A stretch of 63,973 nt of DNA, filler included, from Reclinomonas americana ATCC 50394 (lineage: Eukaryota): assembly GCA_048213135.1 (NCBI GenBank). It is 14 parts of 6 records of this genome, joined end to end, with 100 filler letters (N's around TTAATTAATTAA, not from the genome) between each part and the next. Parts side by side here need not be neighbours in the genome. Positions count along the whole stretch, not along the records: positions 23,979 to 32,917 come from PS015590.1; 13 more parts are not named here. One strand, given 5' to 3'. The notes under the pieces were generated by a model. It was not told where the DNA came from, ran no database searches, and saw only the letters and a program-made list of their open reading frames with translations. The position numbers and the translations under genes were made by a program. Positions 3,552 to 62,367 of the stretch are shown one piece after another; positions within the stretch are counted from its first letter, which is position 1, and each line of letters starts with the position of its first letter.

Positions 3552-3972
3552 GCTTTACACACACACACGGGAAAACACGCAAAACACTGAAGAGTCGCCT
3601 CTCTCAAGACGAGTCCAAAAAAAGTGTGAATCAGTCGATCGGCGGTAGCATGGTCGACCGAAGTATTCTTGCAAAGTGCGACAGCGCCAGCACCGTCGAC
3701 AGAAAGCAATGCGTCGTGCTGCGGAGCGCGGAATATGAAACGCAGCGCATCCAGCATGCATTTTTTCAATTCACTGCAGGCACTTCAATGAGAATTCGAA
3801 ATGAGGAAATAAAGCTGTCGCGTTTGCAGCTGTGCGTGGCACACCAGTAAACAAACGACGTCGATCAGAGCTGTATGAAAGATCGCTGTCGGCATTGTTG
3901 TTTTCTCTTATCTTTCTTTGCTTTTTCTGTCGACCGGTCATCCACTGCCATTCACTTCAATCGTGGTGCGCT

Positions 3973-9950: not shown

Positions 9951-12173
9951 ACTCCTTCACTCAATTCACTCCTTATTGTGCACACAGGGCAAGATCTTTG
10001 AGCCGTTCGAGCAGGCCGGTTCACCAAACACTGGTCGATACTATGGTGTCGGTCTCGGTGCGTCTTATGCTCCTTTATCGCACGTCATCTGATCACGATC
10101 TGAATGTGTTCTGCCTTCTACAAGGTCTGAGTATCTGCCGCGAGACCCTGGCCATGCTTGGCGAATCTGTGTGGGTGGAGTCCCCGCTGGATGTCGTTGC
10201 GGGCACGGGTTCACGGTTCTCCTTCACGTTCCCGGTGCACTTTTCGCCCTCGGATCACGAGAGAGAATACGAAGGTGAGTACGTCGCGAATTACCTGGCG
10301 ATAATGGATCGCTGATGTTTTTTTCTGTGATCTCCGCAGCCTCGTCACTAACGCGCTCTCGCGGTGTTTCCATGTCGGCGGCTACGGGTACCGCACCGAC
10401 GCCATCTTCATTACCTCCTCGGCTACTGGCCTCCTTGTCGCAGACGCTGTCGTCGTCCTCGTTGTCGTCGGTGGCGGCTGCAGCGGCGACGGCAGCGACA
10501 GCGACCGCCGCGGCAACCGCCACGGCGACGTATGCGGCGTCGGATGTGCAGACTGCCGAACACCAAGTGATCCATCATCCCGTGCACCAGCGACCCTTGT
10601 CCAGCCGGTCGGCACTGCCGCCGCGCTACGGGCACGCCAGAGACCACCGCTTTCTCCATGCAACGCACCCACACCCGCCACCGCCACCGCCACCGCCGCC
10701 GCCAGTAATTGCTGGCGATGGCGGTGCTGCATCGGCGATTCCACCAATGGCCGTGGGTGGTCATCGATCCGTCGCTGTACCGTCGCCCCTGGCCGACAGT
10801 GGTTTCAGTCGGAAGCTGCGAAATCGGCGCGGTCACGTCTCGGGCAGCTCGGTCGAGTCGCGTTCATCGTCGCGTACCAGTGGCAGCATACACACGGGTG
10901 GCAGCCAGGAGAGCATCACCTATACGCCTGGATCCACGGGAGTGGTGATGCCCTTGGGTTCGCCGCCGCACATGGTGGAGTCGTATCGCGCCTCGGGTCC
11001 GCGTGGTCGGTCGGTGCCGACCTCGCCAGATCTGAGTCCCGGTCGCACGTCACCCGTTGCCAGTGGCAGCTACGGCAGCGGTGAGGATTCGCGAGTGGGA
11101 CGCGGCACACTGCTGGAACCTCCTCGCCTCTACGGCAATCACCATTCGTTGTCGGGACCTGCTGCAGAAGCCGCGGCAACAGCAGCAGCGGCGGCGGCGA
11201 CGGCGGCAGCAAGAGGCGCGCGATCGAGGACCGCCACCGCCACACGGTGCAGCAGTGACTCGGCGTCACTGACGGCCGCCACCGCCGGCGACGAGTCCTC
11301 GCGGGCAAGTTCCGCCGAGCTCGCCGCATCGGAGTCGACCACCGGAGCCACACAGAGCGGCATCTCCACCAACAGCACGGTGGCGACTGCAGCCGCGGAG
11401 GCAGAATCGCGAACATTCCACGTGTTTGTCTGCGACGACAATCGCATGGTGCTGCGACTTGTCGACAGGATGGTCAACAAGCTGTTTACAGAGGTGCGTG
11501 CTCGGATGCATTCGCGTCTGTGCGCGTCTGCCGTTGCTCATTGCACGAGCCGCACAGGTCACCAAGCACTACAAGGTACCGTGGAAACTGCAGACGCACG
11601 CATTCGCCAGCGGCGAAGAGCTCCTTGCATTCGCGGCTCGGTTCGTGGAGGACCCACGCGTCAGGTCGCAATCTGTTCGCGACCTGGTAGTCACCGGTAC
11701 GCATGTTGTTGTGTTTTTTTTGTTGTGTGATCTTCACATGTCTCTCACTTTGCCTTCGTGTCGTTTCTCTCTCGTTTTTCGCGCATGTCCATGCAGACTT
11801 TCAAGTTGCGTCTCGCGCTGGTGCTGCTGTACTTTTCCCTCTCTTTCTTTATCCTCAACCTAACCTCGCGCCTCGCCAGATGCCCGGCCTGAATGGCGAG
11901 GAGACGGCACAGCAGTTGAAGCGACTGTTTCGCAATGCCCAGTTGCCCGTTCCGACTGTGGTGTGCCTCACCGGCGAGGACGTATTCTACGAGCAGCGCC
12001 GTCGCGAATTTACGCGACCTGCTGGAGAGATCGAATCGCCGAGTGGCCTCGATGGCGTAATCCTGAAATCAAAGGAGCGCGAAGAGCTCACGGGCATCCT
12101 CGAGCGTCTCGTACATCGGGCGCGCGGGGCATGCCACGCCGTAGGTGCATCCTCGGCACAAGTTCGCTCATGA
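7304..12173 (+). CDS. Membrane-bound hybrid sensor histidine kinase/response regulator (5' end uncertain)
   Basis: Hydrophobic exons ~7820-8830. H-box FISRVSHEFRGPIMAL (~9100-9150), N-box MSNLLSNAVKYT, G1 VTDTGVGI, F-box KIFEPFEQ and G2 GVGLGLSIC. A long S/A/P linker precedes the receiver VFVCDDNRMV...DLVVTDFQMPGLNG...VVCLTG...DGVILK. Confidence 0.9.
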
Positions 12174-12566
12174 CGAACAAGTTAGTGCCCCCGAAAAAAT
12201 ACCAATCAATCTCAATGTAGGAATCGCGTAATCACGAATGTGGCACCAAGGGTACGATACACATACCAACAAACGTGAGGTCAAACACACACTAAAACGG
12301 GAAAAATAAGGAGAAAGCGGACACCACAGCGGTGAAGAGAGAAAAGAGGAGACGAGAGGAGAGGGGAAAAAACAGAACATTCTAGGCAACAGCGAGACCG
12401 ACAGCAGCACACGCGCAGTACCCAAGAAAACCAGGCACATGCACACACACACAACACCGTCCGTCANNNNNNNNNNNNNNNNNNNNNNNNNNNNNNNNNN
12501 NNNNNNNNNNTTAATTAATTAANNNNNNNNNNNNNNNNNNNNNNNNNNNNNNNNNNNNNNNNNNNN

Positions 12567-18155: not shown

Positions 18156-18694
18156 TAGCACAAGAAAGACAGAAGCGCAAGACTCGAACTGCTCGCCGGC
18201 CTTAAGGGGAAAGGGAAAAAAGAGAAATCGAGCAATCATTTGTTCGCATTCGGATCGCACTCCGTACAGCGGCCACCAGCACCACCAGCAAGCAGCGATG
18301 ATGAGAAGGGTCGCGAAGACAGACATGCAGTTCACGAGAAACAGACGACGATGGAAAGGAAGCTTGCGAAAAACCAACACCATCACAAAAATCATGAAAA
18401 GCAGAGGCCATGCGCGGACGCGTGGAGAGGTATGCCAGGGAGCGCACACACACAGGAGTGAGTGGAACAGGAGAGGGAAATGAAGAGGAGGAGGGAGAAG
18501 AAGAAGAAGAAGAAGAAGAAGAAGAGAGAAGGGGCCCAAGCTGTGCTGGAAAGAACACAAAGAATCTTTGTTTCTCGGCGAAAATCGCTCCCACNNNNNN
18601 NNNNNNNNNNNNNNNNNNNNNNNNNNNNNNNNNNNNNNTTAATTAATTAANNNNNNNNNNNNNNNNNNNNNNNNNNNNNNNNNNNNNNNNNNNN

Positions 18695-19595
18695 ATCACC
18701 GCAGCAGCAGCAGCAGCAGCAGCAGCAGTTTTCGCAAATGTCCATGCCGGGCATGAATGCGGCAGCCACGGTGCCGGCGGGTATGATGCGAATGACGCCC
18801 ACGCAGTTTGGGACGATGCCAGTGCAGTTTGGCGCCGGTTCGCAGTTTTCTTCGGGCACCGGACCCGGTGACATGCCGATGATGCCAGGCGGGGCGTCGA
18901 TGCCGGGAGGCATGCAGTTATTCACGATGCCGACGTCGAACATGCCCAACTTTTCCATGCCGCAGCTGCCGGGGGCCACCGGGCAGTTCATGGCCCCGGT
19001 GCCTGCTCCGCCCGGTCATATGCAGCAGCAGTTCAACCGGCTGCACACGCCTCAGCAGCCGCAAGTACCGTCAATGCCGCAGATGCCACTTCAGCAAGTC
19101 ACCGCACCCCAGGCAGCTGCAGCGTACTTTTCGTCGATGATGGGCACGCCGCCGGGAGCACCGTACGGACCTCAGCCGCCAAGCACGCTGCGTTTCGCCG
19201 CCGGCATGCCCACTGGACCCACACCGGCCGGCTCCACTGCAACCACCACGAACACCACTGCCACCGCCATGCCGAGCGTGAATGGCGGCGCCGCCATGAT
19301 GATGCCCGGCGGTCATTCACTCGTGCAACCGCAGCAGCAACAGCAGCAGCAGCCGCAGCAGCAACACATGATGATGTCGTTGCCGCCGGGGATGATGAAC
19401 CAGTTCATGATGACGACGGCGGGTTCACCGGGCATGCCTGGTGCACCGCCTTCCATGATGCCGCAGCTGGCGCCGCACGGGAATCTCCCTGGCATGATGC
19501 CTACCGGTGCTATGGGTCCACTAAGCATACCGCAGCCATCGCCACAGTTTGCCGGAGCACCCACATTCATGGGCACTAGTACGCCTCCACCTCAG

Positions 19596-19626
<31 letters not shown>

Positions 19627-20077
19627 GACAGTCACCTTCATCGTTGTCGGGCACGTCGTCGCAACCACAACAGCAGTCGTCGCAGCAACAACAACAGCCA
19701 ACGTCGCGACAATCGATGCACAATGGTGGTGGCGGTGGCGCCGTGGCTGCCAGTTCTCCGCGTGGTGGTCTTGCTGGCAGCGGCTCAGCGTTGACGGCGC
19801 TGGCCTCGAGTCCCGCTCCTGCCACGGCTCCGGCGCCTCCTGTGCACGATCCGCCCAACAGCACGACCAATGGTATGCCTACGTCGGTGAGCAGTGCGCA
19901 AGTCAATGGTAACGACACGTCTGCGCCAAGTGGGGTCATTTCCAACGAGGCACTCGGCTACGGCCTGTTTGAGGAGCTGCGAGACCAGGATGTTTTTAAT
20001 ACGGTACATTATTGGATGCCGTCGCCTCGTGTTAGGCGAACGACTGACTGACTCGTTGTACTTCACAGACCATGTAA
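18695..20077 (+). CDS. Low-complexity Q/M/P-rich protein, part 2 (possibly the same gene as 16344-18155)
   Basis: About 1.3 kb open frame from the gap, with poly-Q and M/P-rich repeats, ending ...FEELRDQDVFNT|TM* through a short last intron (stop 20075-20077). Confidence 0.6.
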
Positions 20078-23878: not shown

Positions 23879-24127
23879 NNNNNNNNNNNNNNNNNNNNNN
23901 NNNNNNNNNNNNNNNNNNNNNNTTAATTAATTAANNNNNNNNNNNNNNNNNNNNNNNNNNNNNNNNNNNNNNNNNNNNATCGACTGACTGACGGACACAT
24001 TGCCTTTCTCTCTCCTGTGACGTCTTCGCGTTTCTCGTTGTTGTAGTCATTACATGTTCTCGTGTTTGTTGTTGTACAGTGAATTCCAGGCACACACTTC
24101 TATCGCGGGGATTGTTGAGAGGCGAAA

Positions 24128-24495
24128 TCACTTTCGCCAGCCGTGCTTGCTCAGCCACGACTGTGCCAGTTGCATCACCACCATGGCGGCACCGTTGCGC
24201 GTAAAGATGCTAATGGAACCGGGCAGAATGCCGCGGTACAGACTCCAGAAGCCACCCATGTGTTGCACGCGCTGCCGTAATGTGGGTCTGCGGACGGGTG
24301 AGAACGTGGAAGGGACACTCTTGCGTGCCAAAGAGTACACGCACTTTTCGATGCCCGGCACAATCGTGTTGGCCTGCACTTGATTCTTCAACGTCTCGAA
24401 GGGCCACACCAGCCAGAAGCCAATCATGGCGCAGCCGCCCGACGCCGCAAACTGCCCCACCTTGGACTCGAGCATGTTGGTGTGCCGCCTTAGCG
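24128..24495 (-). CDS. SLC25 carrier 3' part, on an inverted contig
   Basis: Third carrier repeat WPFETLKNQVQ...GFWSLYRGILPG...RNGAAMVVM...HGWRK*. It joins 23878 in frame when the contig is reverse-complemented. Confidence 0.85.
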
Positions 24496-24522
24496 NNNNN
24501 NNNNNNNNNNNNNNNTGCGGGC

Positions 24523-25800
24523 TCATTCGGCGGGCGGTAGTAGCGGTATCTCCTCTCCCGCTGGTGCTGCCGAGGCGGAAGACTCGCCAGCGCCCCTCGC
24601 GATCTCCAATTCGCGCGTCAACTTGGCCACTTGCCTGGCCAGCTCCAGTTCCCGCGTCAGTGTCGCGACTTGATTCGTCAGCTCCTCGTTTCGCCTCTGC
24701 AGCGCCGTAATCTGATCGCGCTGCAGCGCGATCGTGTTGACGAGATCGCGATGAAACTTGGTCGGCTGCGCACAGAATCAGTGCAAGCCTTCATGCACGC
24801 ACGAGGAGATACATACACACGCGCACCTGGATGGAGACCATGTGCTGCTGCTGTTGCTGCTGCTGCTGCGTCAGCTGTTGCTGCGGTTGACCGGCAGGTG
24901 GCGGCTCAAACGTCGCCCGGCTAATGAGCCCATCCATGGAGCCAAAGTCATCGAGGCTGCCGACACGCATCAGTGCCATGTAGTTGCCGTGTCCACCATT
25001 CGCGCCCTGTCCAGCAGCACCGCCACCCGCGGCCCACGCATCATCCGCACTCCGATGATGATGCGGCATACCAAACGACGGGACCTGTATGCAAGGAAAG
25101 GAATCGGCAAAGGGGAATACGAGGCCGACAGCAGCGAGGCCGGGAGCATACCTTTTGCAAGGCTACCGAGGAAGGCACCGGCAAGTATGCGCTCGATCCT
25201 GTCAGAGAGTGAGGCGGACGTGGCACAACAACAGCAGCAGCTGAGAGACGCACCGAGCAAGCTGCCACCCATCAAGTACTGCGAGGTGTTACGAGGTGGC
25301 GGAGGCACCACATTCTTCAGATCACGCGCACGCACCACATGCTGCCTCCTGTTACGCGCGCACACACACAGCAGACGAAGCTCAACACAAAATGATCGAT
25401 AACCGGAAGAATGTCGCAAGTAAACCTCTTGCGCAAGTGATTCTGTCGCTCCTGCTCCTTGGTGAGCAGGCGCCGTTCCTCGGCGTCCTCCAGTGCCTTG
25501 GCATCGGTCCATGTCTTGGGCTGCAAACGCATGAGACAGAGACGAAGAGAGAGCGCGCGCAAAGTGACTCAAGCATCACTCACGGGCACATAGGGCTTCT
25601 TGCGATGCCGATTGCGATACCGCTGACGATGCTTGCCTGTGAGAGAGCGTGTCACACACACACTCATACTCATCAACAAAGATGCACATGAACTGACCGC
25701 CTCCGTGCTCAGCCGCGCGTTTCTCACTGACCACCTGTGCACTGCGCACAAGCTCGCCTCCTACTACTGGTGGTGTGCCTGGAGCTGCATCAGCCTCCAT
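24523..25800 (-). CDS. HEXIM-like protein (putative P-TEFb/7SK regulator)
   Basis: Spliced product: ...GKHRQRYRNRHRKKPYVPPKTWTDAKALEDAEERR...VVPPPPRNTSQYLM...DDFGSMDGLISR...coiled coil LQRDQITALQRRNEELTNQVATLTRELELARQ*. The motif order matches HEXIM: basic KHRR, KPY-x-TW, PYNT-like, coiled coil. Confidence 0.65.
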
Positions 25801-25885
25801 GTTCGTTGTTGTTTCTCGCACAATGAGTGACAATCTCGCGCACACTCGTCGATCCATTGTTTGTTTGTGTTTTGTGTGCTGTGCA

Positions 25886-28800
25886 ATGAGCAGCGACGAG
25901 GAGAACGACGAGGCGTGGCAGGACGATGACGACGACGATGATGATGTCGATGATGAGGAGGAGGAGGAGGAGCGAGGTGCGTGAGATGGCCTCCACACAC
26001 AAACAAACACGCGCACACGCGCACGCACACGCAGAGAGCGGCGTGTGAGCAATGCACACTGTGTGCGTGTGTGTGTATGTGTGCATGTGGCTGTGAGCGA
26101 GAACAAGAGCGCGTGAGTTTTGTGTGTGTGCGCGCGCGCGCAATGTTGAGTTGTCTTTGTGCGTGTGCGTGTGTGCAGCGCGCCCTGTGAAACGTGCCAA
26201 GACAAGTGCGACCAAGAAGAGCAAGAGTGCACGTGGAGGCAAAGGTCGCGGCGGTGGTGGTGCTGGTGGTGCTGGAGGAAGTGCGGCGGGTGGTCTTGGT
26301 GGCATGTTTGTGAATGTGGAGGCGGAGGCGAGTGAGGACGACGAGGACGATGAGGATGAGGAGGATATGGATGATGAGATTGAGGCGGATGAGATTGTCA
26401 AGGTGGAAATCGACCTCTGTGAAAAGGCGACACAGAGACAGAGATTGAGACTGATTGTTGTGATTGACAGGATTTCATTGTGCCCAATGATCGGCGACCG
26501 CGGCGGCAGAAGAAGAAGCATGGAGGGCGTGGGGATGAGGAGGATGAGGATGAGCCGTCGTTGTTGGAGCTGCTGCGGCAGCGGCGAGAGGATGATGATG
26601 CGGTGGGCGGACCGGGCATTCGTGGTATCGATTCGGTCATTCAGCGCCTGCAGAGCCGTGGCGACGACGACGAGGACGAGGATGATGTCATGGCGATGGA
26701 TGGTGCGTGGGGGGACACCGAGGGAGCGAGAGGAGGGATGCAGGGCCGGCTTGCTGATCTGTGTGCGTGCGTGTGCAGAGATTGACGAGGAGGAAGAGGC
26801 GGAGCTGGATAGGCGAGATCAGGTCGACTATCCGACCCCACACGACCCAAAACTGTTTATTATCAAGTGCAAGGTGCGTTTTTGTGTGTTGGTGGTGCCA
26901 CTCGTGTCCTCCACCATGCTCACACACACGCGTGCGCGCGCGCAGCCGGGCATTGAGCGCGAGGTGACGATGCGATTGATGGCCAAGGCGTCGCGCATGA
27001 TTGCGGCGAATGGCGGCGAGTTGCCACCCCGTTGCATCACCTCTGTGGTGGCTCTCGACGCCATGACGGGTCGCATCTACGTCGAAGGACCCAACGACGA
27101 AGTCGTCAAGGAGGTGTGTGTGTGTGTGTGTGTGTTTTGTGATGCAGTTGTCGCCGTGTGTGCGCGTGGCCGGCCTCCTCACGTGCGCCGTCGATGCACA
27201 CAGTTCCTGCGTGGTGTGCGCGACTTGTCGACATGGAACATGCAACTGGTGCCGGTGGACGAGCGTGTGGCCGGCGTCAGTGTGGGCTCCAAGAAAGTGG
27301 TAACGGCGTTGAAGGACGGCCAGTGGGTGCGCTTCAACCGCGGTGTCAACAAGGGCGATCTGCTGCTGGTGATGCAATACGACGCGGTCCGCCAAATGGC
27401 CACGGTGAGGTTCGTACCGCGTGTGGACCCGCTCGAGGATCAGAAGCGGCAGGCTGCGGCGGCGGCTGCGGCGGCGGCGGGTCGCAGCACGAAGAAGCGA
27501 GGGCGCGCCGTTCGTCCACCACCGAGAATGGCAATTCGTTCCGACTTTGACGCATCGACGTATGCGGTGGAGCCGAAGCCTGATGGGGGGTTTTCGTGGC
27601 ATCACCACTCGTTCGACAAGGATGGCTACGAGATCAAGACTGTGTCGATCAAGGTGGGGCGGGTGGGGAAAGGAAAGGGGAGCGAGGGGGAGAGAGAAAA
27701 GGAGGGACAGAGAATGATTGACAGTATCATCAGTCGGTACTCTGGTCTGGTCTGTGTGGCTTTCTTTTTCTCTCTCTGTATGTGTGGGTAGGAACGAGTT
27801 GAGGAGGAGAGGGGGTTGGTGAGAGTTAAGAGGGAGATAAAGATTGTGGCAGTGGTACAGCATCTGTTCTTGGTGCTTCGTTGTGGTCTTTCTATCTGCG
27901 CATGTTTAAGGAAGAAAGAGTTGAGAGAACGAGGGAAAGGACATTTGTGCGAGAAAGAGAGAGTGCGGCACATCATCGTTGCTTGGTGCCTTTGTCTGCG
28001 CGCTCTCCATACGTGTGCGTTTGTATGGGAATGAGAGGGATGATGATTGTGGTATTAGTTCAGTCAATCAGTACCCTGGTTTCTCTCTCTCTCTCTCTTC
28101 ATGTGCAAGTGCATGTGTGTTCATGTCTGTGCGTGACAGAGAGAAATGAGAGGTGCAGGGTCAGTCAATCTGTTCCCTTGTTTGTCTGTCCTGTCTCTCT
28201 CGCTCTCTGTTTCCGTCCCTGTCTCTCTTTTTCTCTCTCCCACTTTCCCTCTTTCCCCTTTCCCTCCTTCTCGCTCATGTGCACTGCTCTCACACCGTCC
28301 ATCACGCAGACACTGGAGACGAGGAATGTGGAGCCGGCACTCGATGAAATGAAGAGATTCCACGAGGGTGCCGTGGCCAGCGCGGCTGCCGACAAGGGCT
28401 CAGGACAGAGCACGCGTGACATGCTGGCGCGCTCGGCGGTGAAGCGTCAGATTGTCTTTAGCACCGGCGACTCGGTCATTGTGACGTCGGGTCAGTACAA
28501 GAATCTGTCGGGCGTGGTGCAGGCCGTCGACAAGGACACTGTGTCTATCATTCCCGCCGCTGGCTCACAGTTGCCTGTTGCGTATCTTGCTTGCTATTCT
28601 GATTCCCCTGTGCGCGTCATGCTGACCAAATACTGGCGGTTGCAGGGCTCGATTGTGGTGGAGAAATCCTTGATCGACAAGTACTTCCAGAAGGGCGACT
28701 CGGTCAAGGTGCTGGCTGGCCGCTACGCGGGTGAAACCGGTATGGTCATCAAGGTGGAAACCACACGTGGTGTCACAGTGGTCACCGTGCAGAGCGACTT

Positions 28801-31762
28801 GTCGACCGAGAAGACGGTGCGCTTGTTTTCTTTGTTTTGCGTGCTCAGCGACGTACGGCACCTGATGATGATTGCGATGCAGATGGAAGTGTTTGCCGCC
28901 GACTTGAAGTTGTCGCGCGATACCTCTACCGGTGTCGAATCGGCCGGCAAGTTTGCGTTGCATGATTTGGTGCAGTTGGAGTTGCGTATTGTCTGCGAAC
29001 CCCCCATGTTGTTGATCATTGACTGATGGTGACGGCGCAGTCCCGAGATGTGGGGCATCGTGGTTCGCTTCCAGACGGGAGTCATTGGCGTGATGAATGT
29101 GCACGGCGAGGTCATTGAGAAGACGCCGGCTGAGCTGGAGTTGAGACGCGGCAAGGACTATGCGATTGACCATACCAAGAACCAGTTCCGCCAGAACGAC
29201 ATTGTGCGTGTCGTCGAAGGGCCGAACAAGGTTTCGTTCCCGCCCGACTGCATCGCATGGTGTGTATTGTTGTAACCCGCGCTGCTGTGCAGGGTCGTCA
29301 AGGCACCGTGAAGCACATTTACAGGGCCTGGGTGTTTGTGCACTCGCGAGAGGTGCCAGACAATGGCGGTGTGTTTGTCGTGCGCTCGCACAATGTGCAA
29401 GTGCAGGGCGGAAGAGCAGACAGCAGTGCAAGTCGTGGAGCCGGTAGTTCAATGGGACCGCCGTCGGCGATGGGTGGTGGTCGCGGTGCAGGTCGTGGTC
29501 GTGGTGCTTTCGGTAGGAGCGCGACCGCCCTCTTTGTTGTCCCACGTGTTCGTTTGCTCACAGTGTGTGTCATTCGTTGCAGGCGGGCGCTTCGGCAGGG
29601 ACGAGTTCTTGTACAAGAAAGTGCGCATCAAGGGACCCCATCAGTTCAAGGTATGTCGGCAGTGCGGCGTGACCGTGGATGTGTTCACTCGCACATTCTC
29701 ACACTCCGGTGGCGGTGCGGTAGGGCTACGCCGGCATGGTCAAGGCCGTCAACGACGACATGTGCACGGTGGAACTTGAATCTGTTTTCCGATCTGTCAA
29801 TGTGCCGCGTGACAAGCTGCTCTTGGTCAATGCGTTGCGTACGATGAGTGATGCCACAGCAAGGGTTGTCGCCGCTCACAGCTGTGTGTGCGTGCGTGTT
29901 GCAGAGAGCGCACGTCGTTTGGTGGTCGCCGCCCTGGCGAAGACTTTGGTGGCAGTTTCGGCAGCTCAAATATGGACCACGGTGGCTCGATGGGATCGTG
30001 GATGCCTCCGCGCACACCGTTGCACGATGGTTCCGGTGCGTACAATAGTAACCCTCGTGTTGTTGCCGGCAGCTCTGTGTCCCTGTTTGCTTACCATATT
30101 TTCTCTCCTCTCGCGCACAGCTACGCCCATGCGCGAAGATGGATCGTCGACTCCATGGGACCCGCGTGCTCCCAACACTCCGGCACGGTGTGTCATGTGC
30201 AACATGTCGCGCTTCTGTTCAAGGATAAGAAATTAATAATGCATCTCCTTCATGTCATAGCGACTCGGACGGCGGAGGCGCCATGTGGGACGCTCGCGTG
30301 CCGAACACACCGCGTCACCAGTTGTGTATGATGAGGGAGAGGGATGGGAAGGAAACTGAAGTCAATGTGCATGTGTGGCTCACACTGTGCGTGCGCGTGC
30401 CTCGCAGCTCCGATCGCTTCGACTCGCCGTTCGAGATGGGAGTTGCGTGGGTGGAGTTGCCCTTGCATCTCCCCCTCTTGACGCGTTCGTCTCACAAGTC
30501 TTGCCCGCAGACACCATACTCGTCGTCGACTCCGAGCATGCGCGGCAACTCGTCGAGCACACCTGTTGGCTCCTTCTCGGCGCCGTCGCCGGCGATGAAT
30601 GCCTACAGCGACTCATACGACACGGCCTCGACGCCGATGAGTGCGGCCACCCCGTCCATGGTGTCGGGCGTCACACCATCGTCGCGACCAATGGCGCACA
30701 CGCCGGGCATGCCGGGCATGGGTGCACCGACGCCGGGTCACACGCTGGGTTTCACCGCCACCACACCGAGCTTCTCGGCACACACACCGATGATGGCTCA
30801 CACGCCGACCATGACGGCACACACCCCGGGCATGGGTGCACCGACTCCGGGCATGGGTGCGCCGACGCCCACCATGTCGGCACACACCCCCCTGTCGGCG
30901 CAGACACCGGGCATCGGGTTGCACTCACATACACCGGCCATGGGTGGCATTGGTGCTCCGACACCTGCCGTCAGCTTCGGGTACACGCCCAGCGACACGC
31001 CGGGTGTTAATGTTCACGGCTACGCGGCGGCCACTCCTGGCTACCACTTGCCGAGCGCCGCTGCGGCTCCCACACCGGCCTTTGGTGGTTCCGGTCATTA
31101 CTCCGCCACACCCGCTGTCGGCTACAGCTCTGCGCACACACCAGCCGTCGGCTTCAGTTCGTCGCATACGCCCGCCGTCGGCGGCAGCGGCGGATACTCG
31201 TCGTACTCACCAGCTCCGGGCGGTTTCCATCCGGCAGGCTCGCCGGAGAGCTACGGAGGGTAAGTGGCTGTGCGGGAGAGTGATGGGGTTTCTGGTTGTG
31301 ACTTTGCTGCTGACGTTCCGTGTGGGCAGTGTGTCGACGCCGGGTAGTTCGACCGTGTCGGAGGGTTGGTTGCAGCCGGGCATGGTTGTCGAGTACAATG
31401 GGCAGCGTGGAGTTGTCATGGAGGTCAAGGACGAGTCGCGATCTTTCAGCGCCAAGGAGTGGATTGCCACCATTCGCACGGTTCGTGCTGGGTGGTGGGA
31501 TGTGTGTGTGTGTGTGTTTTTAGGTGCTGTGTTTTTATTCTTTCGGTGTGCACAGAGCGACGGCAGGGAGATACTGGCGCCCATTCACGATGTGCGACCG
31601 GTGCCGCCAAACAAGATTGGCGACACGGTGGCGGTACTGAGTGGTGCACTGGCGGGACGAGTTGGCAAGGTGTTCCGCCTGTCGGCAGCCGACTGCACAC
31701 TCGACATTAGCGGTCAACATCACACGGTGCACGTGCGCGATTTGGTGGTTATGGGGCGATAG
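25886..31762 (+). CDS. SPT5: Transcription elongation factor SPT5 (DSIF large subunit)
   Basis: Acidic N-terminus, PTPHDPKLFIIKCKPGIERE and the NGN domain (GRIYVE). KOW motifs GQWVRFNRGVNKGDL, FSTGDSVIVTSG, KYFQKGDSVKVLAGRYAGETGMV, GRQGTVKHIYR and VRIKGPHQFKGYAG. TP-repeat CTR and C-terminal KOW pair. Confidence 0.95.
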
Positions 31763-32149
31763 TTGTGTGAGGGGAGAGATGAGAGGGAGGAGGGAAAGAG
31801 GGGAGCGAATGAGAAAATGGACCTATACACACAATACGGTAGTTTTGGTGGGATGAAATGCACAGTCTGTTTCTACTCTAACGCCTCCAGTGATTGCCTC
31901 CCTTCCGCCATGGCTGCGATTCTCAGGATATGGGTCAGATGTTGTGGAGGTATGCTTTATTCACTCTCATTATGTGCATGGCGGACTCATGTTGGCCTGT
32001 TTCAGGATCTTCGTCGCCTCTACGATTGTACACTCCATCTGAACCGGCACCCAGTCAAATCAAGAGGCACCCACATGCCCGACGATCAGCTGCCACCGTT
32101 ACTGGCTAATAATCGCGTTGGTTGGCGCAGAGATTTACAGTAGACAAGC

Positions 32150-32917
32150 ATGAGCGGAGGAGGTTCGTGCGACACTGACCCTGCGTCTCCGGCATCTGGC
32201 CACGACGACTTCATCGAAGAAACGCCGCCACGCAGTGCGGCCGCCGGGACAGAAGGTGTTGGTGGCCGCGTTCACTCTCGCGCCATGGCAAGTGCTGCAC
32301 CGATCTGCATGAGCTTCTCCGAGCACATCGAGCACCATCAACTTCGTTGCGATATCCGGCGAGCGGCGGACGACCGCAACGACGCGCAGCAGCGGCAGCA
32401 GCAGCAGCAGCTGATCCAACATCAGCGGGGCCCGGGTCTCGTGCAGGCCGAGGCCGTGGCGTCTGAGAACGGTGACCGCGACCAAGTGATGCTGCCCGTG
32501 GAGAGCAGCACCGCCGAGGACCAGATTGTGGCCATTGGCCATCTCAACTTGAAAATGACTCGCTTGAGCGGCGAAATAGACACCCTGAAAGCCGCTTTCA
32601 AGCGGCTTGAAACAGATGTCTCTCGTCTGCACCCGCAAGTTCAACAGCTTCTGGCGGAGCATCAGGGAGGCGCGATGGACAAGCTGCGGGCGATCGCCTT
32701 CGGTGCCAGTTCGACATTTGTCAGTTTTGCCCGGCGACAGCTGCCTCGGCTGCGCATGGCATCCGTCGAGGAAGTGATGCGGTCGCTGCAGACGATGAAG
32801 ACGGTACATGTGTCAAGTGTTGCGCTCGATCCCGCTGCTGTTGGCCTCGTCTTGGACGTTCTTGAGAAGGCCAATGTGCCCTGCGACTCGGCGTTCGACC
32901 GCCTCACGCACTTCAAG
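32150..32917 (+). CDS. Uncharacterised protein with a short coiled coil (runs into a linker)
   Basis: Open frame of at least 256 codons with coding-like GC3 bias; heptad LSGEIDTLKAAFKRLETDVSRL. Confidence 0.55.
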
Positions 32918-33934
32918 NNNNNNNNNNNNNNNNNNNNNNNNNNNNNNNNNNNNNNNNNNNNTTAATTAATTAANNNNNNNNNNNNNNNNNNNNNNNNNNN
33001 NNNNNNNNNNNNNNNNNCCGCTGCGTCGGCCACCGAATCGGAGAGTGAGGGTGGCGACAGCGCTCGCGTCGGCAAGCGCGTCGGCAAGGCGGCCTCGACT
33101 GCCGCCGCTCCCGCCTCCAGTTCCGGCGGCAAGGCGGGCAAGCAAGGCGTCAAGGTATGTGTGTGTGTATCTTTCGGCACAGAAAAAAAGAAGCTCTCCT
33201 CCCCGTGCTCAACAAACTTGCCTGTGGCGTGTAGCGCACTCTGATGACGGTGCTGCCGACGACCGATCAGTTGCGTGACTCCATCAGCGGCGACGACGGA
33301 GCAGGTGAACCGNNNNNNNNNNNNNNNNNNNNNNNNNNNNNNNNNNNNNNNNNNNNNNNNNNNNNNNNNNNNNNNNNNNNNNNNNNNNNNNNNNNNNNNN
33401 NNNNNNNNNNNNNNNNNNNNNNNNNNNNNNNNNNNNNNNNNNNNNNNNNNNNNNNNNNNNNNNNNNNNNNNNNNNNNNNNNNNNNNNNNNNNNNNNNNNN
33501 NNNNNNNNNNNNNNNNNNNNNNNNNNNNNNNNNNNNNNNNNNNNNNNNNNNNNNNNNNNNNNNNNNNNNNNNNNNNNNNNNNNNNNNNNNNNNNNNNNNN
33601 NNNNNNNNNNNNNNNNNNNNNNNNNNNNNNNNNNNNNNNNNNNNNNNNNNNNNNNNNNNNNNNNNNNNNNNNNNNNNNNNNNNNNNNNNNNNNNNNNNNN
33701 NNNNNNNNNNNNNNNNNNNNNNNNNNNNNNNNNNNNNNNNNNNNNNNNNNNNNNNNNNNNNNNNNNNNNNNNNNNNNNNNNNNNNNNNNNNNNNNNNNNN
33801 NNNNNNNNNNNNNNNNNNNNNNNNNNNNNNNNNNNNNNNNNNNNNNNNNNNNNNNNNNNNNNNNNNNNNNNNNNNNNNNNNNNNNNNNNNNNNNNNNNNN
33901 NNNNNNNNNNNNNNNNNNNNNNNNNNNNNNNNNN

Positions 33935-35014
33935 ATGCGGACGGCGAGGTTGTGGATGGTCTTGTACAGCGTCGCGCGCACAAATTGCTCCACCGTCGGC
34001 ATGTGCACGTACCACGTGTAAATGGTCTTGTCCGTCCGATGATCGGCGGTGCGTGGGATTTCCTGACGCCCAGCGATCAGCCGCTACGCATTCAAGGACG
34101 GTGGCAGAAATGGAAGGCATACCTGCAATTTGACCACTCCCTGCTGCAGCATGCGGTACATCAACTCGCGAACCTCGTTCGGTGCCGCCAGTGCACGCTC
34201 CACAATCTGCCGGCCAAGGCATGGTTAAGTATTATGCGCATCAAACCACGCACTCTGTTTCTTCCTCCCTCTCTCTCTCCCTCTCCCTCTCCCTCTCCTC
34301 CCCCTCCGCACACGCACCTGCTTCTGCTCCAGCTGATTGAATTCGAGGAGCATGCGGAAGATACGGCCACCCAGCAAACCAAACTTCTCCTCGACAAAGC
34401 GCTCCACGTGCACGGAACGGATGCGTCGCATGACCTCACCAAACTGGATGACGTACGTGCCACCATTCGAGTGCGAAACAGTCTCCAACACACCCAGATG
34501 CCGATGCGCCAGCGTGTCCAGACTCGCTTGCATCTCGTGACGGCTGATTAGCGTCGTCGACGGAAGCTTGTTCAGAATGCTTTCGAAAGTGATGGGTGCT
34601 GCAGCAGAGGTCAGGAGTCTGCCTGTGGGAGCACCATTCGAAAGTAGGGACGAAACTGCTGGTCTCCAGATTGGGATTGCGCTCCGTGGCGCGTGAGCAC
34701 TCGAGAATCACCGAAAACGACTCGACGGCAGCCGGATTCGCATTCTGTCGCACATACTCCAACAAAACCTGCGTGTCAGGGGGGTGAATTCAAGCGTGTC
34801 TCCACCCCACGCATGCACACGGGTTCAACGCAACTTCGTGTCGATACAGAATGTGAAACTGCGTCACATTGATCGTCCAGTACCGCTTGTCTTCTGCATC
34901 GTCGGCATCGCCACCGCCACTGCCGCTGCCCGAACCGAATCCGAACAACGAGTCCACATTCATCGCACCGTCATCGCCGCCCGCATCGCCGCCCGTTCTC
35001 TGACGCTTGCGCGG
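33935..35014 (-). CDS. POLR3C: RNA polymerase III subunit RPC3/RPC82, central exons (contig appears inverted)
   Basis: YWTINVTQFHILYRHE, GGTYVIQF...VERFVEEKFGLLGGRIFRMLLEFNQLEQKQI and LQEIPRTADHRTDKTIYTWYVH...LYKTIHNLAVR. Confidence 0.88.
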
Positions 35015-36238: not shown

Positions 36239-37916
36239 CTATACCCATATTCGCTGACAGAAGCGGGAGCCCTCCGACAAGCACGAGCATTGCGTACGAT
36301 AGCGCTTGATGTAGTCACCCGAATAGCCATAATTGATCGTCAGTTCCTCGCCGGGATGGATGGTCCGGTGAGACCGATAGGCCAAGTGCGGCAGCGCCAT
36401 GCCGCGCTCCGTGTGCACCGCAATGCACGACAGTGACGGGTCGCACGAGTGGTTGAGCCAGCGAGACACGTTGCCACGGAACATGGCGTCGATCGAGTAC
36501 TTGCAGCCGGCTTCGGCGTACTCCAAGTCGTGCACATACGAGATGCCGTCGCGATCCGAAATCATGCACCGCCGCTCAGCCTCCAGTGGCGGCAGCAGTT
36601 CGCCAGCGTACTCGCAGATGAGCGTGTTCGGAGGTATTGGACTCGACTCGGCCAGCACCACACCCCATCCTTTGCCGACCTTGTGCTCGATGCGGACTTG
36701 CACTTGCAGGCCACCAATCACGCGCCGATTGCGTCGAAATCCACGCTGCAGCAGCAGACGGCGGTCGGCAAAACGACCACGGCAATGAGCAATGCAAATC
36801 ACGTACCTGCTTCGCGACTTCCAACGACGACAGCGGGCAGCGTGGATCCGTGCACTCGAAAGCCCTATCTGTCACACGACTGTGGAATCGCGGCAGTGCA
36901 CTTGCCGTGTACGCCGCACGATCCTCGCCAACTGCACCGAGACACACATGCAAGAAGTGATGAGACTGATGCTGCGAAACACACATATGTGGGCACTGCA
37001 ACAACAATGATGGCGCAACAATTATTGAGTTGGCACACACAGATGGTGGTACTGACGGTCATTGTCTGCAGGTGCGACACGAGCAACTCGATGGGAAACG
37101 AGAAGCCGACAGTGGCCAGCGGGACATACTGGACGCGGGGATGCCACAAGTCAATATCTCTCATCTCTGTTGGCGTGCGACGAAAGACGCGGAGACGCAC
37201 ATCAATGTACGGAAAAACGACCTGAGCTCCATTGCTGGACGCCGGCAGGGGAATCGACTCACGACCGAGGGAGATGTCGTCGATGTAAAACTCGATGCGC
37301 TCAGTGTTCGACGATGGAATTTCCCCCACCTGCAAAAAGGGAGAATAGTGGGTGCGTGGGAGCGCGCGACATAGGTGACGTGACGACCTGCTCACCGGCG
37401 CCAGAATGGCCGTATTAATCGCCTCAAACACCTTGTTCACGTCTTGCTCGAGCGTGTGAATCGCTCGTACCAGCGACGGCAACGACGGCAGCAACTGCCA
37501 CGACAGACACTCGGCAAGTGGACTTGTCTCTGTGCATCCGCCCTCCCCATGAGTCGACGGGTGACAAGAAGAGACGCGAGTGACATTGTTACATCGCCGC
37601 AACTCGTCTCCGCTGCCCGCTGGTCCTCAAAGTTGTCAATCGTGCACCACGCAGAGTAGTCCAGTGGTGTAAGCGAGGCCGGGTACACAAACACTCTGCG
37701 ACAGCGAATCACTTGCACAGTTAGTCACATGGAAGTGGAAGGAAAAGGTGAGGTGCCACTGACCTCCTGCACACAAACTCGTGCTGTTGACACACTGCCG
37801 GTGCCTGGTCGACGTGATGGACGCGGCAGTGACCGCACACGAGGCCCACTGGCAGATCAAAGCAGTGATTGGTTGCAAACACCTGTTTGCGACGGTGAGA
37901 TGTGTTAACAACCGCA

Positions 37917-37947
<31 letters not shown>

Positions 37948-39540
37948 CACAATAGCGGACCTCATTGTCTCTACACAAAGACCAGTCGACGCCAGCGGTG
38001 AGGAGCTCCTGCCGCCCAAGAAACAGGCGGCAACGCACACTGGTCACCCGGCGATTTCGATCCTTCCAGATGTAGACGATGCGCGAAATGTGGTGCCAGT
38101 TGGCGTGCACCGGACCACCGAGACGATGGTAGATAAAGTCACCGGCTGCCGCAAAAGAGGTAAACATAAAGAATCAAGCAAGGAGAGAGAGAAGGAGAGG
38201 TTGTACGCAACAGCGATACGTGACAAAGTCGGTGCGTGTCTCGAACAGATGCATCTTGGAAAAGTGAATGTGATTGCCCACGAGACGGAACGGGCACAGC
38301 AGCAGGGCGTCCTTGAACGACTGCTCCGCATAACAGTGACGCGGGTGTGACGGCACAAACCGACCCGGCTGTGCACAGTGTCGGCATCCCACCACCAAGC
38401 AGCAACCACAGACGGGCACACACACACACAACACACACGCACCTCGCAGAGTGACGACGGCTGCGCGGGTACATCAAACTCGCGACATTGCTCGGCGGCT
38501 TTCATGAATTGGGAGCACATTGCTCGCTGATACCAGCTGTGTAAGGAGTGAGCGCGTGCGGATTGACTTGGTTCGCTATTACTCTATGCATGCGAGACGC
38601 AACTCGGAAAACGCGCCTGCTCCACATTCGGGTGCTGGTGGCGGTGGAGGACTGGGGAGGCTTGCGTCCGACTCGCAGCTGTCGCTGTCGTGAGCCGTTG
38701 TGACGGTGAACGCGTCCGGTAGAAATTCGCTTTCATACGCTCCCATTGAGCGGCGTGCCTTGTCCTGCTCTCGTAGAGCATCGACAGTTCGCCACATTGC
38801 CTGCATGTGCTCCACGTGGTGCTCGTCGGCCATTTCTGCACAAGAGGAGGTGAGGGAGACGGCTTGGCGAGCGAGGACGAGAGAAACTGCAATTCTACGC
38901 ACCAATGAACTGACGCACATCACAGGCGTCCATGGCCGTCAGAATGCCCGCCGCCTCCTGCTCCTCCACAATGAGTCGATGGCACGCTGCCTCCAGTTCC
39001 ATCAGCGTTCCCCACGTCAGCGCCGCGTCGGCATCCTGCTCTCAGAGAGGAATGTTAGGCACGGGAGCAACACGATGGGAAGCTTTTAACTCACTTGACC
39101 AGGTACGCGCATCGGCAGCGAGAACCGATGCCGGAAGCTGACAGGCACCACAAACATTCACGGTGAGGTCGCGGTGCACAACTCAAAAAGGATAGCCATA
39201 TCACCTTCCACTCTCACTGGGTGGTCGGTCGGCCCATTGCTCCATGCATGCCGACAGAAACCATTCCGTCGCACCCTGCGTTGTGCATTGTGCGCACATC
39301 AGCAGGCAAGCACACTGAGCGAGGCCAGGACTGTACGCACCTCGAATGTGAGACGGCAGAGGGTAAGCAGCTGCAACACTGGCCGGTTGAGGGTGACAGA
39401 GAGAGCCACCAAGGTTGCAATATTGAAGCCGTGGTCATGCATGTATTTTTCCACCATGGTCTTCTCCAACTGGCACAGATGTGGTGGTTTTCCGTGAATG
39501 CTCCTGCGGCGCGGCTTGATGATGAGAGTGCAGATTGCAG
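36239..39540 (-). CDS. SET-domain histone lysine methyltransferase (SUV39/EHMT-like) with an upstream BAH-like domain; 5' end in a gap
   Basis: SET motifs KGWGV, ICEYAGE, IDAMFRGNVSRWLNHSCDP and GEELTINYG, with post-SET CSC...C. Pre-SET entry DDISLGRESIPLP. BAH-like GDFIY...ISRIVYIW...NEVFATNH...CRV...FVCRR. Confidence 0.85.
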
Positions 39541-62069: not shown

Positions 62070-62367
62070 TCACTCCGTCCAACACCATCCAGGCGCACGG
62101 CGTTCAATCACCTCTGCATCCTCCAGTACAAAACACCGCAGCACAACATCGACGAGGATCCAGTCACGATCATCTTCGTCGACGAGCAGCTCGTTGATGG
62201 CCAGCACGGCTGATCGTGCGGCCGCAAGCTCCTGCCGCGCCAGCCCAGACGGCGTGGACCACACACGGATCGTTTTTTCCGCACTCCCACTCAGGATGTG
62301 CTGGCCATCGGGAGTAACGACGACAGAGTATACCCATCCAGTGTATTCCCCCCAACCGTCCAACACT
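62070..62367 (-). CDS. WD40-repeat-containing exon of a partial gene
   Basis: YTGWVYSVVVTPDGQHILSGSAEKTIRVW is a canonical WD40 blade, preceded by a pyrimidine-rich intron end. Confidence 0.7.

What the first reader, a model, noticed from the sequence alone, without database searches (positions are those of the whole stretch)
24523..25800. HEXIM-like protein in an apparently non-animal eukaryote, combining animal HEXIM and plant-type motifs
Seen: the spliced product has KHRQRYRNRHRKKPYVPPKTW, then PPPRNTSQYLM, DDFGSMDGLISR and a C-terminal coiled coil. Known: animal HEXIM1 has KHRRR...KPYYKLTW (7SK-binding), APYNTTQFLM (CDK9-inhibitory PYNT) and a cyclin-T-binding coiled coil in this order, and 7SK/HEXIM is mostly described in metazoa. 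Recalled and needing a check: an uncharacterised plant family ('PRL1-interacting factor A') has APRNTT and GYGSMKGLIR motifs. Inference: this protein may bridge the two families and point to an ancient, possibly RNA-dependent P-TEFb switch with an undescribed 7SK-like RNA.
Basis: partly seen in the sequence, partly recalled or inferred. Interest (0 to 1): 0.8.

Follow-up and report, generated by a model that had tools for sequence, protein, structure and literature searches.

The report
HEXIM-like gene beside SPT5
A small seven-exon gene in an unidentified GC-rich eukaryote encodes a protein with, in the right order, the RNA-binding basic patch, the kinase-blocking motif and the tail helix of HEXIM, the brake on the transcription-elongation kinase P-TEFb, but family membership could only be tested motif by motif.

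Summary
A 729-nt genomic contig from a public run differs at 12 bases and 5 indels. All 6 exonic changes are synonymous third-position changes, and all 5 indels are intronic, so exons 4-7 are under coding constraint.

The 9-mer PRNTSQYLM scores 34 against the published HEXIM1 core PYNTTQFLM. Chance expectation is 0.002-0.01 for the whole six-frame window, where the next best score is 23. It lies behind a KHRQR-containing basic stretch followed by PY, then a predicted helix, and ahead of a 60-residue C-terminal helix, which is the HEXIM1 order.

No profile or sequence search confirmed membership. Single exons gave nothing, and the spliced product could not be submitted. The Tyr of PYNT, the SETYER motif and the acidic region are missing.

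HEXIM orthologues outside animals are already published. The plant link, a 7SK-like RNA and the organism remain untested. The gene sits head-to-head with SPT5.

The parts
25698..25800 (-). Exon 1 (aa 1-35, phase-1 end). Start at ATG 25800; an alternative in-frame ATG lies at 25857.
   Evidence: There is no comparative support, so the N-terminus is uncertain.
25584..25636 (-). Exon 2. It holds the basic stretch at aa 36-48 (25634-25596; 8 K/R and 2 H of 13, containing KHRQR), followed by PYVP.
   Evidence: KHRR is the RNA-recognition motif of HEXIM (passages in PMC3384314, and PMC1183248). 'ARM2-PYYK' is named in PMC12901311.
25426..25520 (-). Exon 3. It opens with PKTW, then a predicted helix at aa 59-82 (25502-25431).
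   Evidence: AlphaFold2 on a single sequence gives a helix at residues 7-30 of the exon, mean pLDDT 86.9. HEXIM1 has a helix at 171-194 between the basic region and PYNT.
25254..25348 (-). Exon 4. It holds a second basic patch and the 9-mer PRNTSQYLM at aa 102-110 (25296-25270).
   Evidence: The 9-mer scores 34 against PYNTTQFLM; the next best score in the six-frame window is 23. Run X1 shows no change in this exon.
25152..25198 (-). Exon 5 (47 nt), needed to keep the frame between exons 4 and 6.
   Evidence: There is one synonymous change at 25164, while intron 5 carries 5 substitutions and 2 indels.
24827..25084 (-). Exon 6. It is a G/A/S/P/Q-rich, low-charge stretch containing DDFGSMDGLISR (24952-24917) and a Q run.
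   Evidence: There are two synonymous changes (24974, 25007). The exhaustive search found no relative.
24523..24765 (-). Exon 7. It holds a 60-residue helix at aa 220-279 (24759-24580), a short acidic tail, and the stop TGA at 24525-24523.
   Evidence: AlphaFold2 gives a helix at residues 3-62, with pLDDT above 90 over the first 50 residues. LIVM occupies 6 of 8 a/d positions in aa 223-250. There are three synonymous changes.
25801..25885 (.). The 85-bp spacer between the start codons of this gene and the divergent SPT5 gene, a likely shared promoter.
   Evidence: That it is a promoter is an inference.
25886..31260 (+). Neighbouring SPT5 gene. It has an acidic exon 1 (25886-25976), NGN, KOW1, KOW2, KOW and KOW4 domains, and a TP-rich C-terminal repeat region.
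   Evidence: Pfam hits, translation, first exon and intron. The 3' limit is approximate.

Best explanation
The gene encodes a divergent member, or close analogue, of the HEXIM family, the adaptor that holds the CDK9-cyclin kinase P-TEFb inactive.

Proposed working, by analogy with HEXIM1:
1. The protein dimerises through the C-terminal helix, which would also contact the cyclin.
2. The Arg/Lys/His stretch with KHRQR binds a structured RNA and brings the protein into the nucleus.
3. The PRNTSQYLM peptide lies in the CDK9 catalytic cleft and blocks the kinase. The kinase would otherwise phosphorylate the TP-rich repeats of SPT5, which is encoded next door.

Because there is no acidic region, the RNA-released self-inhibition of animal HEXIM is probably absent or built differently.

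Shown: the gene model, coding constraint on exons 4-7, the motifs, their order and the helices.
Inferred: homology, RNA binding, dimerisation, kinase inhibition, and any link to SPT5 beyond adjacency.
For: - Gene model: canonical splice sites and an 894-nt frame.
- Coding constraint: 6 of 6 exonic differences from a second genomic copy are synonymous and 5 of 5 indels are intronic. By my arithmetic this is roughly p 5e-4 and 1e-3.
- Codon usage fits the frame.
- The 9-mer scores 34 against PYNTTQFLM, with 6 identities plus T>S and F>Y. P is 1.8e-8 to 9.1e-8 per position. The expectation is 0.002-0.01 in the window and 0.09-0.46 in a 5-million-residue proteome. It is the top score of 92,798 window 9-mers, and the runner-up scores 23.
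- The Thr called critical for P-TEFb binding is kept (PMC1183248 passages).
- KHRQR lies inside a 13-residue stretch with 8 K/R, directly followed by PY. HEXIM has KHRR and 'ARM2-PYYK'.
- A helix is predicted between the basic stretch and the 9-mer, like the HEXIM1 helix at 171-194.
- The C-terminus is a 60-residue helix, where HEXIM1 has its coiled coil at 254-359.
- HEXIM-like sequences lacking the key Tyr are already reported outside animals.
- The gene is head-to-head with SPT5, 85 bp between start codons. SPT5 has TP-rich repeats.
Against: - No search confirmed homology. Pfam on 5 of the 7 exons found no HEXIM hit at E up to 10.
- PDB sequence searches with exons 4, 6 and 7 found no HEXIM chain.
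- The exhaustive HMMER search with exon 6 found 0 of 1.84 billion proteins at E 0.001 or better.
- Word-index searches with exon 6 and with a 40-aa stretch around exon 4 found nothing.
- The Atlas gave no usable hit for exons 4 and 7.
- Defining features are missing. The Tyr of PYNT is Arg. Nothing like SETYER/SDVYER is present. Between aa 111 and 217 there are only 6 D/E in 107 residues, so there is no acidic region. The basic region is one stretch, not two separated by Pro-Ser.
- At whole-proteome scale the 9-mer alone is only borderline. The extra weight comes from the order of features, which I judged after seeing them.
- Splicing and expression are unconfirmed.
- Adjacency to SPT5 may be chance.
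Confidence: 0.55

Rival explanations
1. It is an unrelated, lineage-specific nuclear protein made of a disordered basic N-half and a C-terminal coiled coil. The HEXIM-like short motifs arose by chance or convergence, and the protein does not act on P-TEFb.
For: - Every homology search was blank.
- Three hallmarks are missing: the Tyr of PYNT, SETYER and the acidic region.
- Basic patches and coiled coils are common. Exon 7 weakly resembles many coiled-coil families, 18 Pfam families, all under their cut-offs.
- The 9-mer is expected 0.09-0.46 times per 5-million-residue proteome.
Against: - The 9-mer is the top score in the window by 11 points.
- It co-occurs in one 297-aa protein with KHR.R followed by PY, an intervening helix and a C-terminal helix, in the HEXIM order.
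- The single-exon searches had little power: the exons are 17 to 86 aa long.
Confidence: 0.3
2. The gene model is partly wrong or the locus is not expressed. Exons 1-3, which carry the basic patch, may not belong to the same transcript as exons 4-7, so the HEXIM-like order would be an artefact of exon picking.
For: - 3.4e10 GT..AG paths keep a frame open between this ATG and this stop.
- Exons 1-3 are not covered by the second genomic copy.
- There are two alternative start codons.
- The draft assembly has a 20-N gap 7 bases after the stop.
Against: - Exons 4-7 show purely synonymous change, with indels confined to the introns.
- Exons 1-3 have the same GC1/GC2/GC3 pattern as exons 4-7.
- Intron sizes and ends match those of SPT5 next door.
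- The whole unit fits between SPT5 and the gap.
Confidence: 0.1
3. It is a bZIP-type or similar DNA-binding transcription factor: a basic region plus a leucine zipper.
For: Exon 7 gives weak matches to C/EBP zippers in the PDB (E about 1) and to Pfam bZIP_2 (E 0.69, 10.5 bits against a cut-off of 22.3).
Against: - The matches cover the zipper part only and are far below threshold.
- The basic stretches (aa 36-48 and 80-95) lie more than 120 residues from the helix (aa 220-279), not directly in front of it.
Confidence: 0.03

Closest known systems
Human HEXIM1/HEXIM2 (7SK snRNP, P-TEFb inhibitor)
   Same: - The order of parts is the same: a poorly conserved N-terminus, a basic RNA-binding stretch with KHR.R followed by PY, a helix, the 9-mer core, then a C-terminal long helix.
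- The 9-mer shares 6 of 9 residues with the core, plus 2 conservative changes.
- The Thr of PYNT is kept.
   Different: - Tyr is replaced by Arg in PYNT, and Phe by Tyr.
- The basic stretch is single rather than two separated by Pro-Ser.
- The linker is longer: 66 residues from KHR to the 9-mer, against about 51.
- There is no acidic region and no SETYER.
- The helix is shorter.
- No detectable similarity outside the motifs was found in the searches that could be run.
Drosophila dHEXIM (CG3508)
   Same: It was recognised by the same three hallmarks plus low overall identity to human HEXIM, 27-28% (PMC3384314 passages). The present protein shares the KHRR-like and PYNT-like hallmarks.
   Different: dHEXIM keeps PYNT and SDVYER intact and was found by BLAST. 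Here one hallmark is altered, one is absent, and no BLAST-type match could be made.
Non-metazoan HEXIM orthologues and 'HEXIM-like' sequences of Chivu et al. (PMC11482795)
   Same: These are unicellular-eukaryote proteins that resemble HEXIM but often lack the functionally important Thr, Phe or Tyr (passages). This is the closest described category.
   Different: I could not compare sequences. Their Supplemental Table 1 and Supplemental Figs 5 and 8 were not readable here, so I cannot tell whether this organism or this variant is already listed.
   Different: Not tested. No plant sequence entered the session, and the searches for 'PRL1-interacting factor' and for CDKC with HEXIM brought no paper describing such a family.

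Membership tests
HEXIM (Pfam PF15313; 7SK snRNP subunit) | Significant profile match to the family model | tested here: inconclusive
   Exons 7, 6, 4, 3 and 1 were scanned singly against Pfam at E up to 10, with no HEXIM hit. Exons 2 and 5 are too short to scan. The spliced 297-aa product could not be submitted, so the fair test is still open.
HEXIM (Pfam PF15313; 7SK snRNP subunit) | KHRR RNA-recognition motif inside an Arg/Lys-rich basic region | tested here: met
   KHRQR at aa 36 lies within a 13-residue stretch holding 8 K/R and 2 H, followed by PY. The motif is defined in PMC3384314 and PMC1183248. One Gln is inserted, and the stretch is not bipartite.
HEXIM (Pfam PF15313; 7SK snRNP subunit) | PYNT motif within the conserved core PYNTTQFLM | tested here: inconclusive
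   PRNTSQYLM scores 34, P 1.8e-8 to 9.1e-8 per position. Pro, Asn, Thr, Gln, Leu and Met are kept, but the Tyr is Arg. Chivu et al. link that Tyr to strong pausing.
HEXIM (Pfam PF15313; 7SK snRNP subunit) | SETYER / SDVYER motif needed to bind and inhibit P-TEFb | tested here: not met
   There is no YER-type motif. The only candidate position holds DDFGSMDGLISR. The motif is defined in PMC3384314.
HEXIM (Pfam PF15313; 7SK snRNP subunit) | Acidic region between PYNT and the coiled coil (autoinhibition) | tested here: not met
   Residues 111-217 hold 6 D/E and 4 K/R in 107 residues, and 62 of them are G/A/S/P/Q. No 15-residue block has more than 2 D/E.
HEXIM (Pfam PF15313; 7SK snRNP subunit) | C-terminal dimeric coiled coil that binds cyclin T | tested here: inconclusive
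   A single 60-residue helix is predicted with high confidence, with heptad LIVM at 6 of 8 a/d positions. Dimerisation was not tested. Cyclin binding cannot be tested without the organism's cyclin.
HEXIM (Pfam PF15313; 7SK snRNP subunit) | Partners present: 7SK RNA, LARP7, MePCE, CDK9, cyclin T | not testable with these tools
   No genome is held. Rfam on the 64-kb window found no 7SK at the gathering threshold or at E up to 1, which says nothing about the rest of the genome.
bZIP transcription factors | Basic DNA-binding region directly N-terminal to the leucine zipper, with a profile match | tested here: not met
   bZIP_2 gives E 0.69 and 10.5 bits against a cut-off of 22.3, on the zipper part only. 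The basic stretches lie more than 120 residues upstream.
   No member sequence was obtainable. Literature searches gave nothing on such a family (listings only).

The most novel reading that the evidence does not exclude
This is an ancestral-type HEXIM from a eukaryote outside animals and their known unicellular relatives. It has the RNA-binding patch, the kinase-cleft peptide (Arg in place of Tyr) and the dimer helix, but no acidic self-inhibitory region, and it shares a promoter with SPT5, the kinase's substrate. That would mean the HEXIM brake on P-TEFb is older than Holozoa. It would first have worked without the RNA-released autoinhibition of animals, either constitutively or with an undescribed RNA. 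The acidic region, SETYER and the Tyr would then be later additions that sharpened promoter-proximal pausing.
Probability: 0.2. Interest if true: 0.7.

Novelty: new member of a known kind. Interest (0 to 1): 0.45.

Why it matters
HEXIM with 7SK is the main switch that sets how much active P-TEFb a cell has, and so how long RNA polymerase II stays paused. When that switch arose is an open question. The one broad survey held in the library (PMC11482795) places its origin near the base of Holozoa and mentions only patchy look-alikes elsewhere. A constrained, clearly coding gene with the core motifs but without the autoinhibitory acidic region would be a natural minimal version. It could be used to test which parts suffice for kinase inhibition and RNA dependence. 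If the organism proves to lie outside Holozoa, it would push the origin back. The head-to-head pairing with SPT5 gives a cheap test of co-regulation. If the organism turns out to be a holozoan protist, the finding is an ordinary addition to a published list.

Tried and rejected
Searches for relatives of the protein (all blank):
- Pfam on single exons found no HEXIM.
- Word-index protein search with exon 6, longer proteins: 538 candidates, none at E 0.01 or better.
It was repeated with a contiguous 40-aa genomic stretch around exon 4: 31 candidates, none at E 10 or better.
- The third and last search of this kind went to the SET-domain ORF, to place the organism: 663 candidates, none at E 1e-10 or better. 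The same ORF matches human EHMT2 in the PDB at 6e-23, so blanks from this tool are weak evidence.
- Exhaustive HMMER search with exon 6: 0 hits.
- Protein Atlas with exons 4 and 7: no usable hit.
- PDB sequence search with exon 4 gave 0 hits, exon 6 gave 6 chance-level hits, and exon 7 gave 21 generic coiled coils with no HEXIM chain.
- Foldseek with the exon 7 helix gave 0 matches.
- Metagenome scan with exon 6 found no relative.
- Metagenome scan with exon 7 found one locus, L001, with 34 residues at 53% identity. L001 has dense long ORFs of prokaryotic style and a best 9-mer score of 18, so I rejected it as unrelated.

Expression and partners:
- Sequencing runs: no RNA holder is listed. The one holder, X1, is a genomic contig that covers only 24639-25352. 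Runs X2-X4 laid nothing.
Dimerisation is therefore untested.
- Rfam found no 7SK, only sub-threshold miRNA-like hairpins at CA/GT repeats. No tRNA was found.

Tools and files not available:
- No whole genome is held.
They list which species hold HEXIM-like sequences and which residues those keep, so they bear directly on novelty.
- PMC5111705 is not held.
- One 'HEXIM + Arabidopsis' hit was merely the hyphenated word cyclo-heximide.

Gene model:
- Counting all GT..AG models gave 3.4e10, so it is uninformative.

Organism:
- It was not identified.
- The NSA2 exon is nearer to human (72.5 bits) than to three fungi (52.6-60.2 bits) in the PDB.
- The SPT5 KOW1 piece has no PDB match at E 0.001 or better.
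- The STAG piece matches human SA-1 at only 22 bits.
- These results do not place the organism.

Full report
WHAT IS THERE

The gene is on the minus strand. Reading 25900..24480 gives seven exons: 25800-25698, 25636-25584, 25520-25426, 25348-25254, 25198-25152, 25084-24827 and 24765-24523. A script that joined them by coordinate found an 894-nt frame of 297 codons plus TGA, with no internal stop. The six introns are 61, 63, 77, 55, 67 and 61 nt, all GT..AG.

All quoted peptides are present. KHRQRYRNRHRKKPYVP closes exon 2 and PKTW opens exon 3. PPPPRNTSQYLM is in exon 4 and DDFGSMDGLISR in exon 6. Exon 7 is a long heptad-rich helix.

IS THE MODEL REAL?

An open frame obtained by splicing is no evidence in itself. 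A mechanical count of GT..AG paths from this ATG to this stop gives 3.4e10. Three independent observations support the model.

First, one public run holds a 729-nt genomic contig covering 24639-25352. It differs from the window at 12 bases and 5 indels. All 6 substitutions that fall in exons are third-position and synonymous. The other 6 substitutions and all 5 indels fall in introns. Exons make up 527 and introns 187 of the covered bases. That is the signature of purifying selection on this frame for exons 4-7.

Second, codon usage correlates with Pfam-supported exons elsewhere in the window at 0.69 in frame, against 0.51 and -0.12 out of frame. GC1/GC2/GC3 is 0.70/0.48/0.67, and the introns have GC 0.53.

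Third, two introns of the neighbouring SPT5 gene are 72 and 90 nt with the same kind of ends.

Some parts stay weak. Exons 1-3 lack comparative cover. There is an in-frame ATG at 25857, and another ATG inside intron 1 in the frame of exon 2. No RNA run was listed. A 20-N assembly gap begins 7 bases after the stop.

ANATOMY OF THE PRODUCT

- aa 1-35: no features.
- aa 36-48: 13 residues with 8 K/R and 2 H, containing KHRQR, then PY.
- aa 54-55: TW.
- aa 59-82: a helix predicted by AlphaFold2, mean pLDDT 86.9.
- aa 80-95: a second basic patch.
- aa 102-110: PRNTSQYLM.
- aa 111-217: 62 of 107 residues are G/A/S/P/Q, with only 6 D/E. This stretch includes DDFGSMDGLISR and a Q run.
- aa 220-279: one 60-residue helix, pLDDT above 90 for the first 50 residues. 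LIVM occupies 6 of 8 a/d positions in aa 223-250.
- A short acidic tail.

COMPARISON WITH HEXIM AS DESCRIBED IN PAPERS I READ IN PASSAGES

PMC12901311 describes HEXIM1 in this order:
- a poorly conserved N-terminus (1-149);
- a basic region of two Arg/Lys stretches separated by Pro-Ser, referred to with the following residues as 'ARM2-PYYK';
- a helix at 171-194;
- the conserved core 202-PYNTTQFLM-210, which binds CDK9;
- an acidic region that masks the core until RNA binds;
- a coiled coil at 254-359, which dimerises and binds cyclin T1.

PMC3384314 names three hallmarks that identified the fly homologue: KHRR, PYNT and SETYER/SDVYER. PMC1183248 calls Thr205 critical, and reports a PYND mutant impaired in repression and P-TEFb binding.

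The present protein has the same order of parts. It has a KHRR-like motif with one inserted Gln, PY after the basic stretch, a helix in the linker, and a core 9-mer with 6 identities plus T>S and F>Y. The Thr is kept.

I scored the 9-mer against the published core with BLOSUM62. The score is 34. The exact tail probability is 1.8e-8 per position with the window's six-frame composition, and 9.1e-8 with standard composition. That gives 0.002-0.01 expected in the whole six-frame window and 0.09-0.46 in a 5-million-residue proteome. It is the best of 92,798 window 9-mers, and the next scores 23.

So the 9-mer is far beyond chance for this window but only borderline at proteome scale. The case for homology rests on its co-occurrence, in order, with the other parts. 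I judged that after the fact, so it carries no clean probability.

WHAT DOES NOT FIT

- The Tyr of PYNT is Arg.
- There is no SETYER-like motif.
- There is no acidic region.
- The basic region is single rather than bipartite.
- No search confirmed homology. The blank searches are set out under Tried and rejected.
- The exons are 17 to 86 aa long. The most HEXIM-like part is split over exons 2, 3 and 4, so these blanks have little power.
- The proper test, a profile scan of the spliced product, could not be run here.

MECHANISM

The best reading, at 0.55, is a divergent HEXIM-type inhibitor of the CDK9-cyclin kinase. It would form a dimer through the C-terminal helix. It would bind RNA and enter the nucleus through the basic stretch, and block the kinase cleft with the PRNT-type peptide. 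Without an acidic region, the RNA-released autoinhibition described for HEXIM1 is unlikely to operate in the same way. Inhibition may therefore be constitutive or gated differently. All of this is inference from the anatomy.

Rival readings are an unrelated nuclear coiled-coil protein with convergent motifs (0.3), a partly wrong gene model (0.1), and a bZIP-like factor (0.03; bZIP_2 scores 10.5 bits against a cut-off of 22.3, and the basic patches are far from the helix).

CONTEXT

The window is not one chromosome stretch. Thirteen N44-TTAATTAATTAA-N44 linkers join separate scaffolds (the 12-mer was checked at 4 of the 13). The gene's scaffold is 23979-32917.

Its only certain neighbour is SPT5, transcribed divergently. 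Start codons are 85 bp apart, or 28 bp if the ATG at 25857 is used. SPT5 has NGN, KOW1, KOW2, KOW and KOW4 domains and a TP-rich C-terminal repeat region.

By established knowledge of DSIF and P-TEFb, SPT5 is the classic P-TEFb substrate. That makes the pairing suggestive, but adjacency alone proves nothing.

Downstream, beyond the 20-N gap, lies only the last repeat of a mitochondrial carrier. The gap therefore hides sequence.

ORGANISM

The organism was not identified. The window has GC 0.579, short introns and many CA/GT runs. The few conserved pieces do not place it; the comparisons are listed under Tried and rejected. 'Non-animal' is plausible but unproven.

WHAT IS KNOWN ALREADY

[quoted passage not shown] It also reports patchy HEXIM-like sequences in a few other eukaryotes, many without the key Thr, Phe or Tyr, and it argues for an origin near the base of Holozoa.

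My searches for 'HEXIM-like' (4 papers), for 7SK with LARP7 and choanoflagellate (2 papers), and for CDKC with HEXIM (2 papers) returned nothing else relevant.

VERDICT

This is most likely a further, stripped-down HEXIM-like gene in a unicellular eukaryote, that is, a new member of a known and already published kind. Its value depends on where the organism sits and on a profile test that remains to be done. Interest is 0.45.

Noticed in passing
window 12467-12566, 18595-18694, 23879-23978, 32918-33017 and nine more places: The window is a pseudo-molecule. Thirteen linkers of 44 N + TTAATTAATTAA + 44 N join separate scaffolds, and there are further N runs of 20-937 bases inside the scaffolds. 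Gene order across a linker therefore means nothing (the 12-mer was checked at 4 linkers).
   Followed up: partly
window 25886-31260 (+): This is an SPT5 gene with a very acidic first exon (21 D/E in the first 30 residues), NGN and KOW domains, and a C-terminal region full of TP-containing repeats. Its KOW1 piece has no PDB match at E 0.001 or better, so it is a divergent SPT5.
   Followed up: partly
window 24131-24493 (-), behind the 20-N gap at 24496-24515: Only one Mito_carr repeat, the last one ending in a stop, is present. The first two repeats of a normal carrier would have to lie where the HEXIM-like gene is, so the 20-N gap must hide an unknown amount of sequence.
   Followed up: no
window 1129-1455 (-) and 2474-2896 (+): Two pieces match the S8e/NSA2 profile: positions 66-115 on the minus strand and 21-68 on the plus strand. 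They lie on either side of an 824-N gap. The opposite strands suggest a mis-oriented contig or a second partial copy. The first piece is NSA2, 72.5 bits to the human protein.
   Followed up: no
window 36242-38173 (-): A BAH domain lies upstream of a SET domain of the H3K9 methyltransferase type. The best PDB matches are EHMT2, EHMT1 and SUV39H2, at E 6e-23 to 1e-21.
   Followed up: partly
window 62974-63972 (+), open at the window end: A 333-aa uninterrupted ORF holds five DSL-type and EGF-type cysteine repeats (Pfam DSL E 1.1e-40; also Teneurin-like and laminin EGF). It has no PDB sequence match at E 1e-8 or better.
   Followed up: partly
window 6111-6521 (+), 34228-34707 (-), 47790-48335 (-), 62073-62402 (-): Other recognisable gene pieces are Tim17 family, a POLR3C winged-helix (below the cut-off), the STAG domain of a cohesin subunit, and WD40. 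Most long ORFs of the window (for example 3805-6126, 10279-11727, 18696-20048, 59727-61337) have no Pfam match.
   Followed up: no
window 24639-25352: A second genomic version of the locus exists in a public run. It has 12 substitutions and 5 indels in 714 bases, and a different CA-repeat length in intron 3, seen as a loose end at 25352. It may be an allele or another strain.
   Followed up: partly
window 25997-26082 and 58695-58913: Sub-threshold Rfam matches to several miRNA precursor families (24.8-34.1 bits against gathering scores of 60-100) fall on CA/GT-rich palindromic stretches. One lies in SPT5 intron 1. They are most likely repeat hairpins.
   Followed up: no
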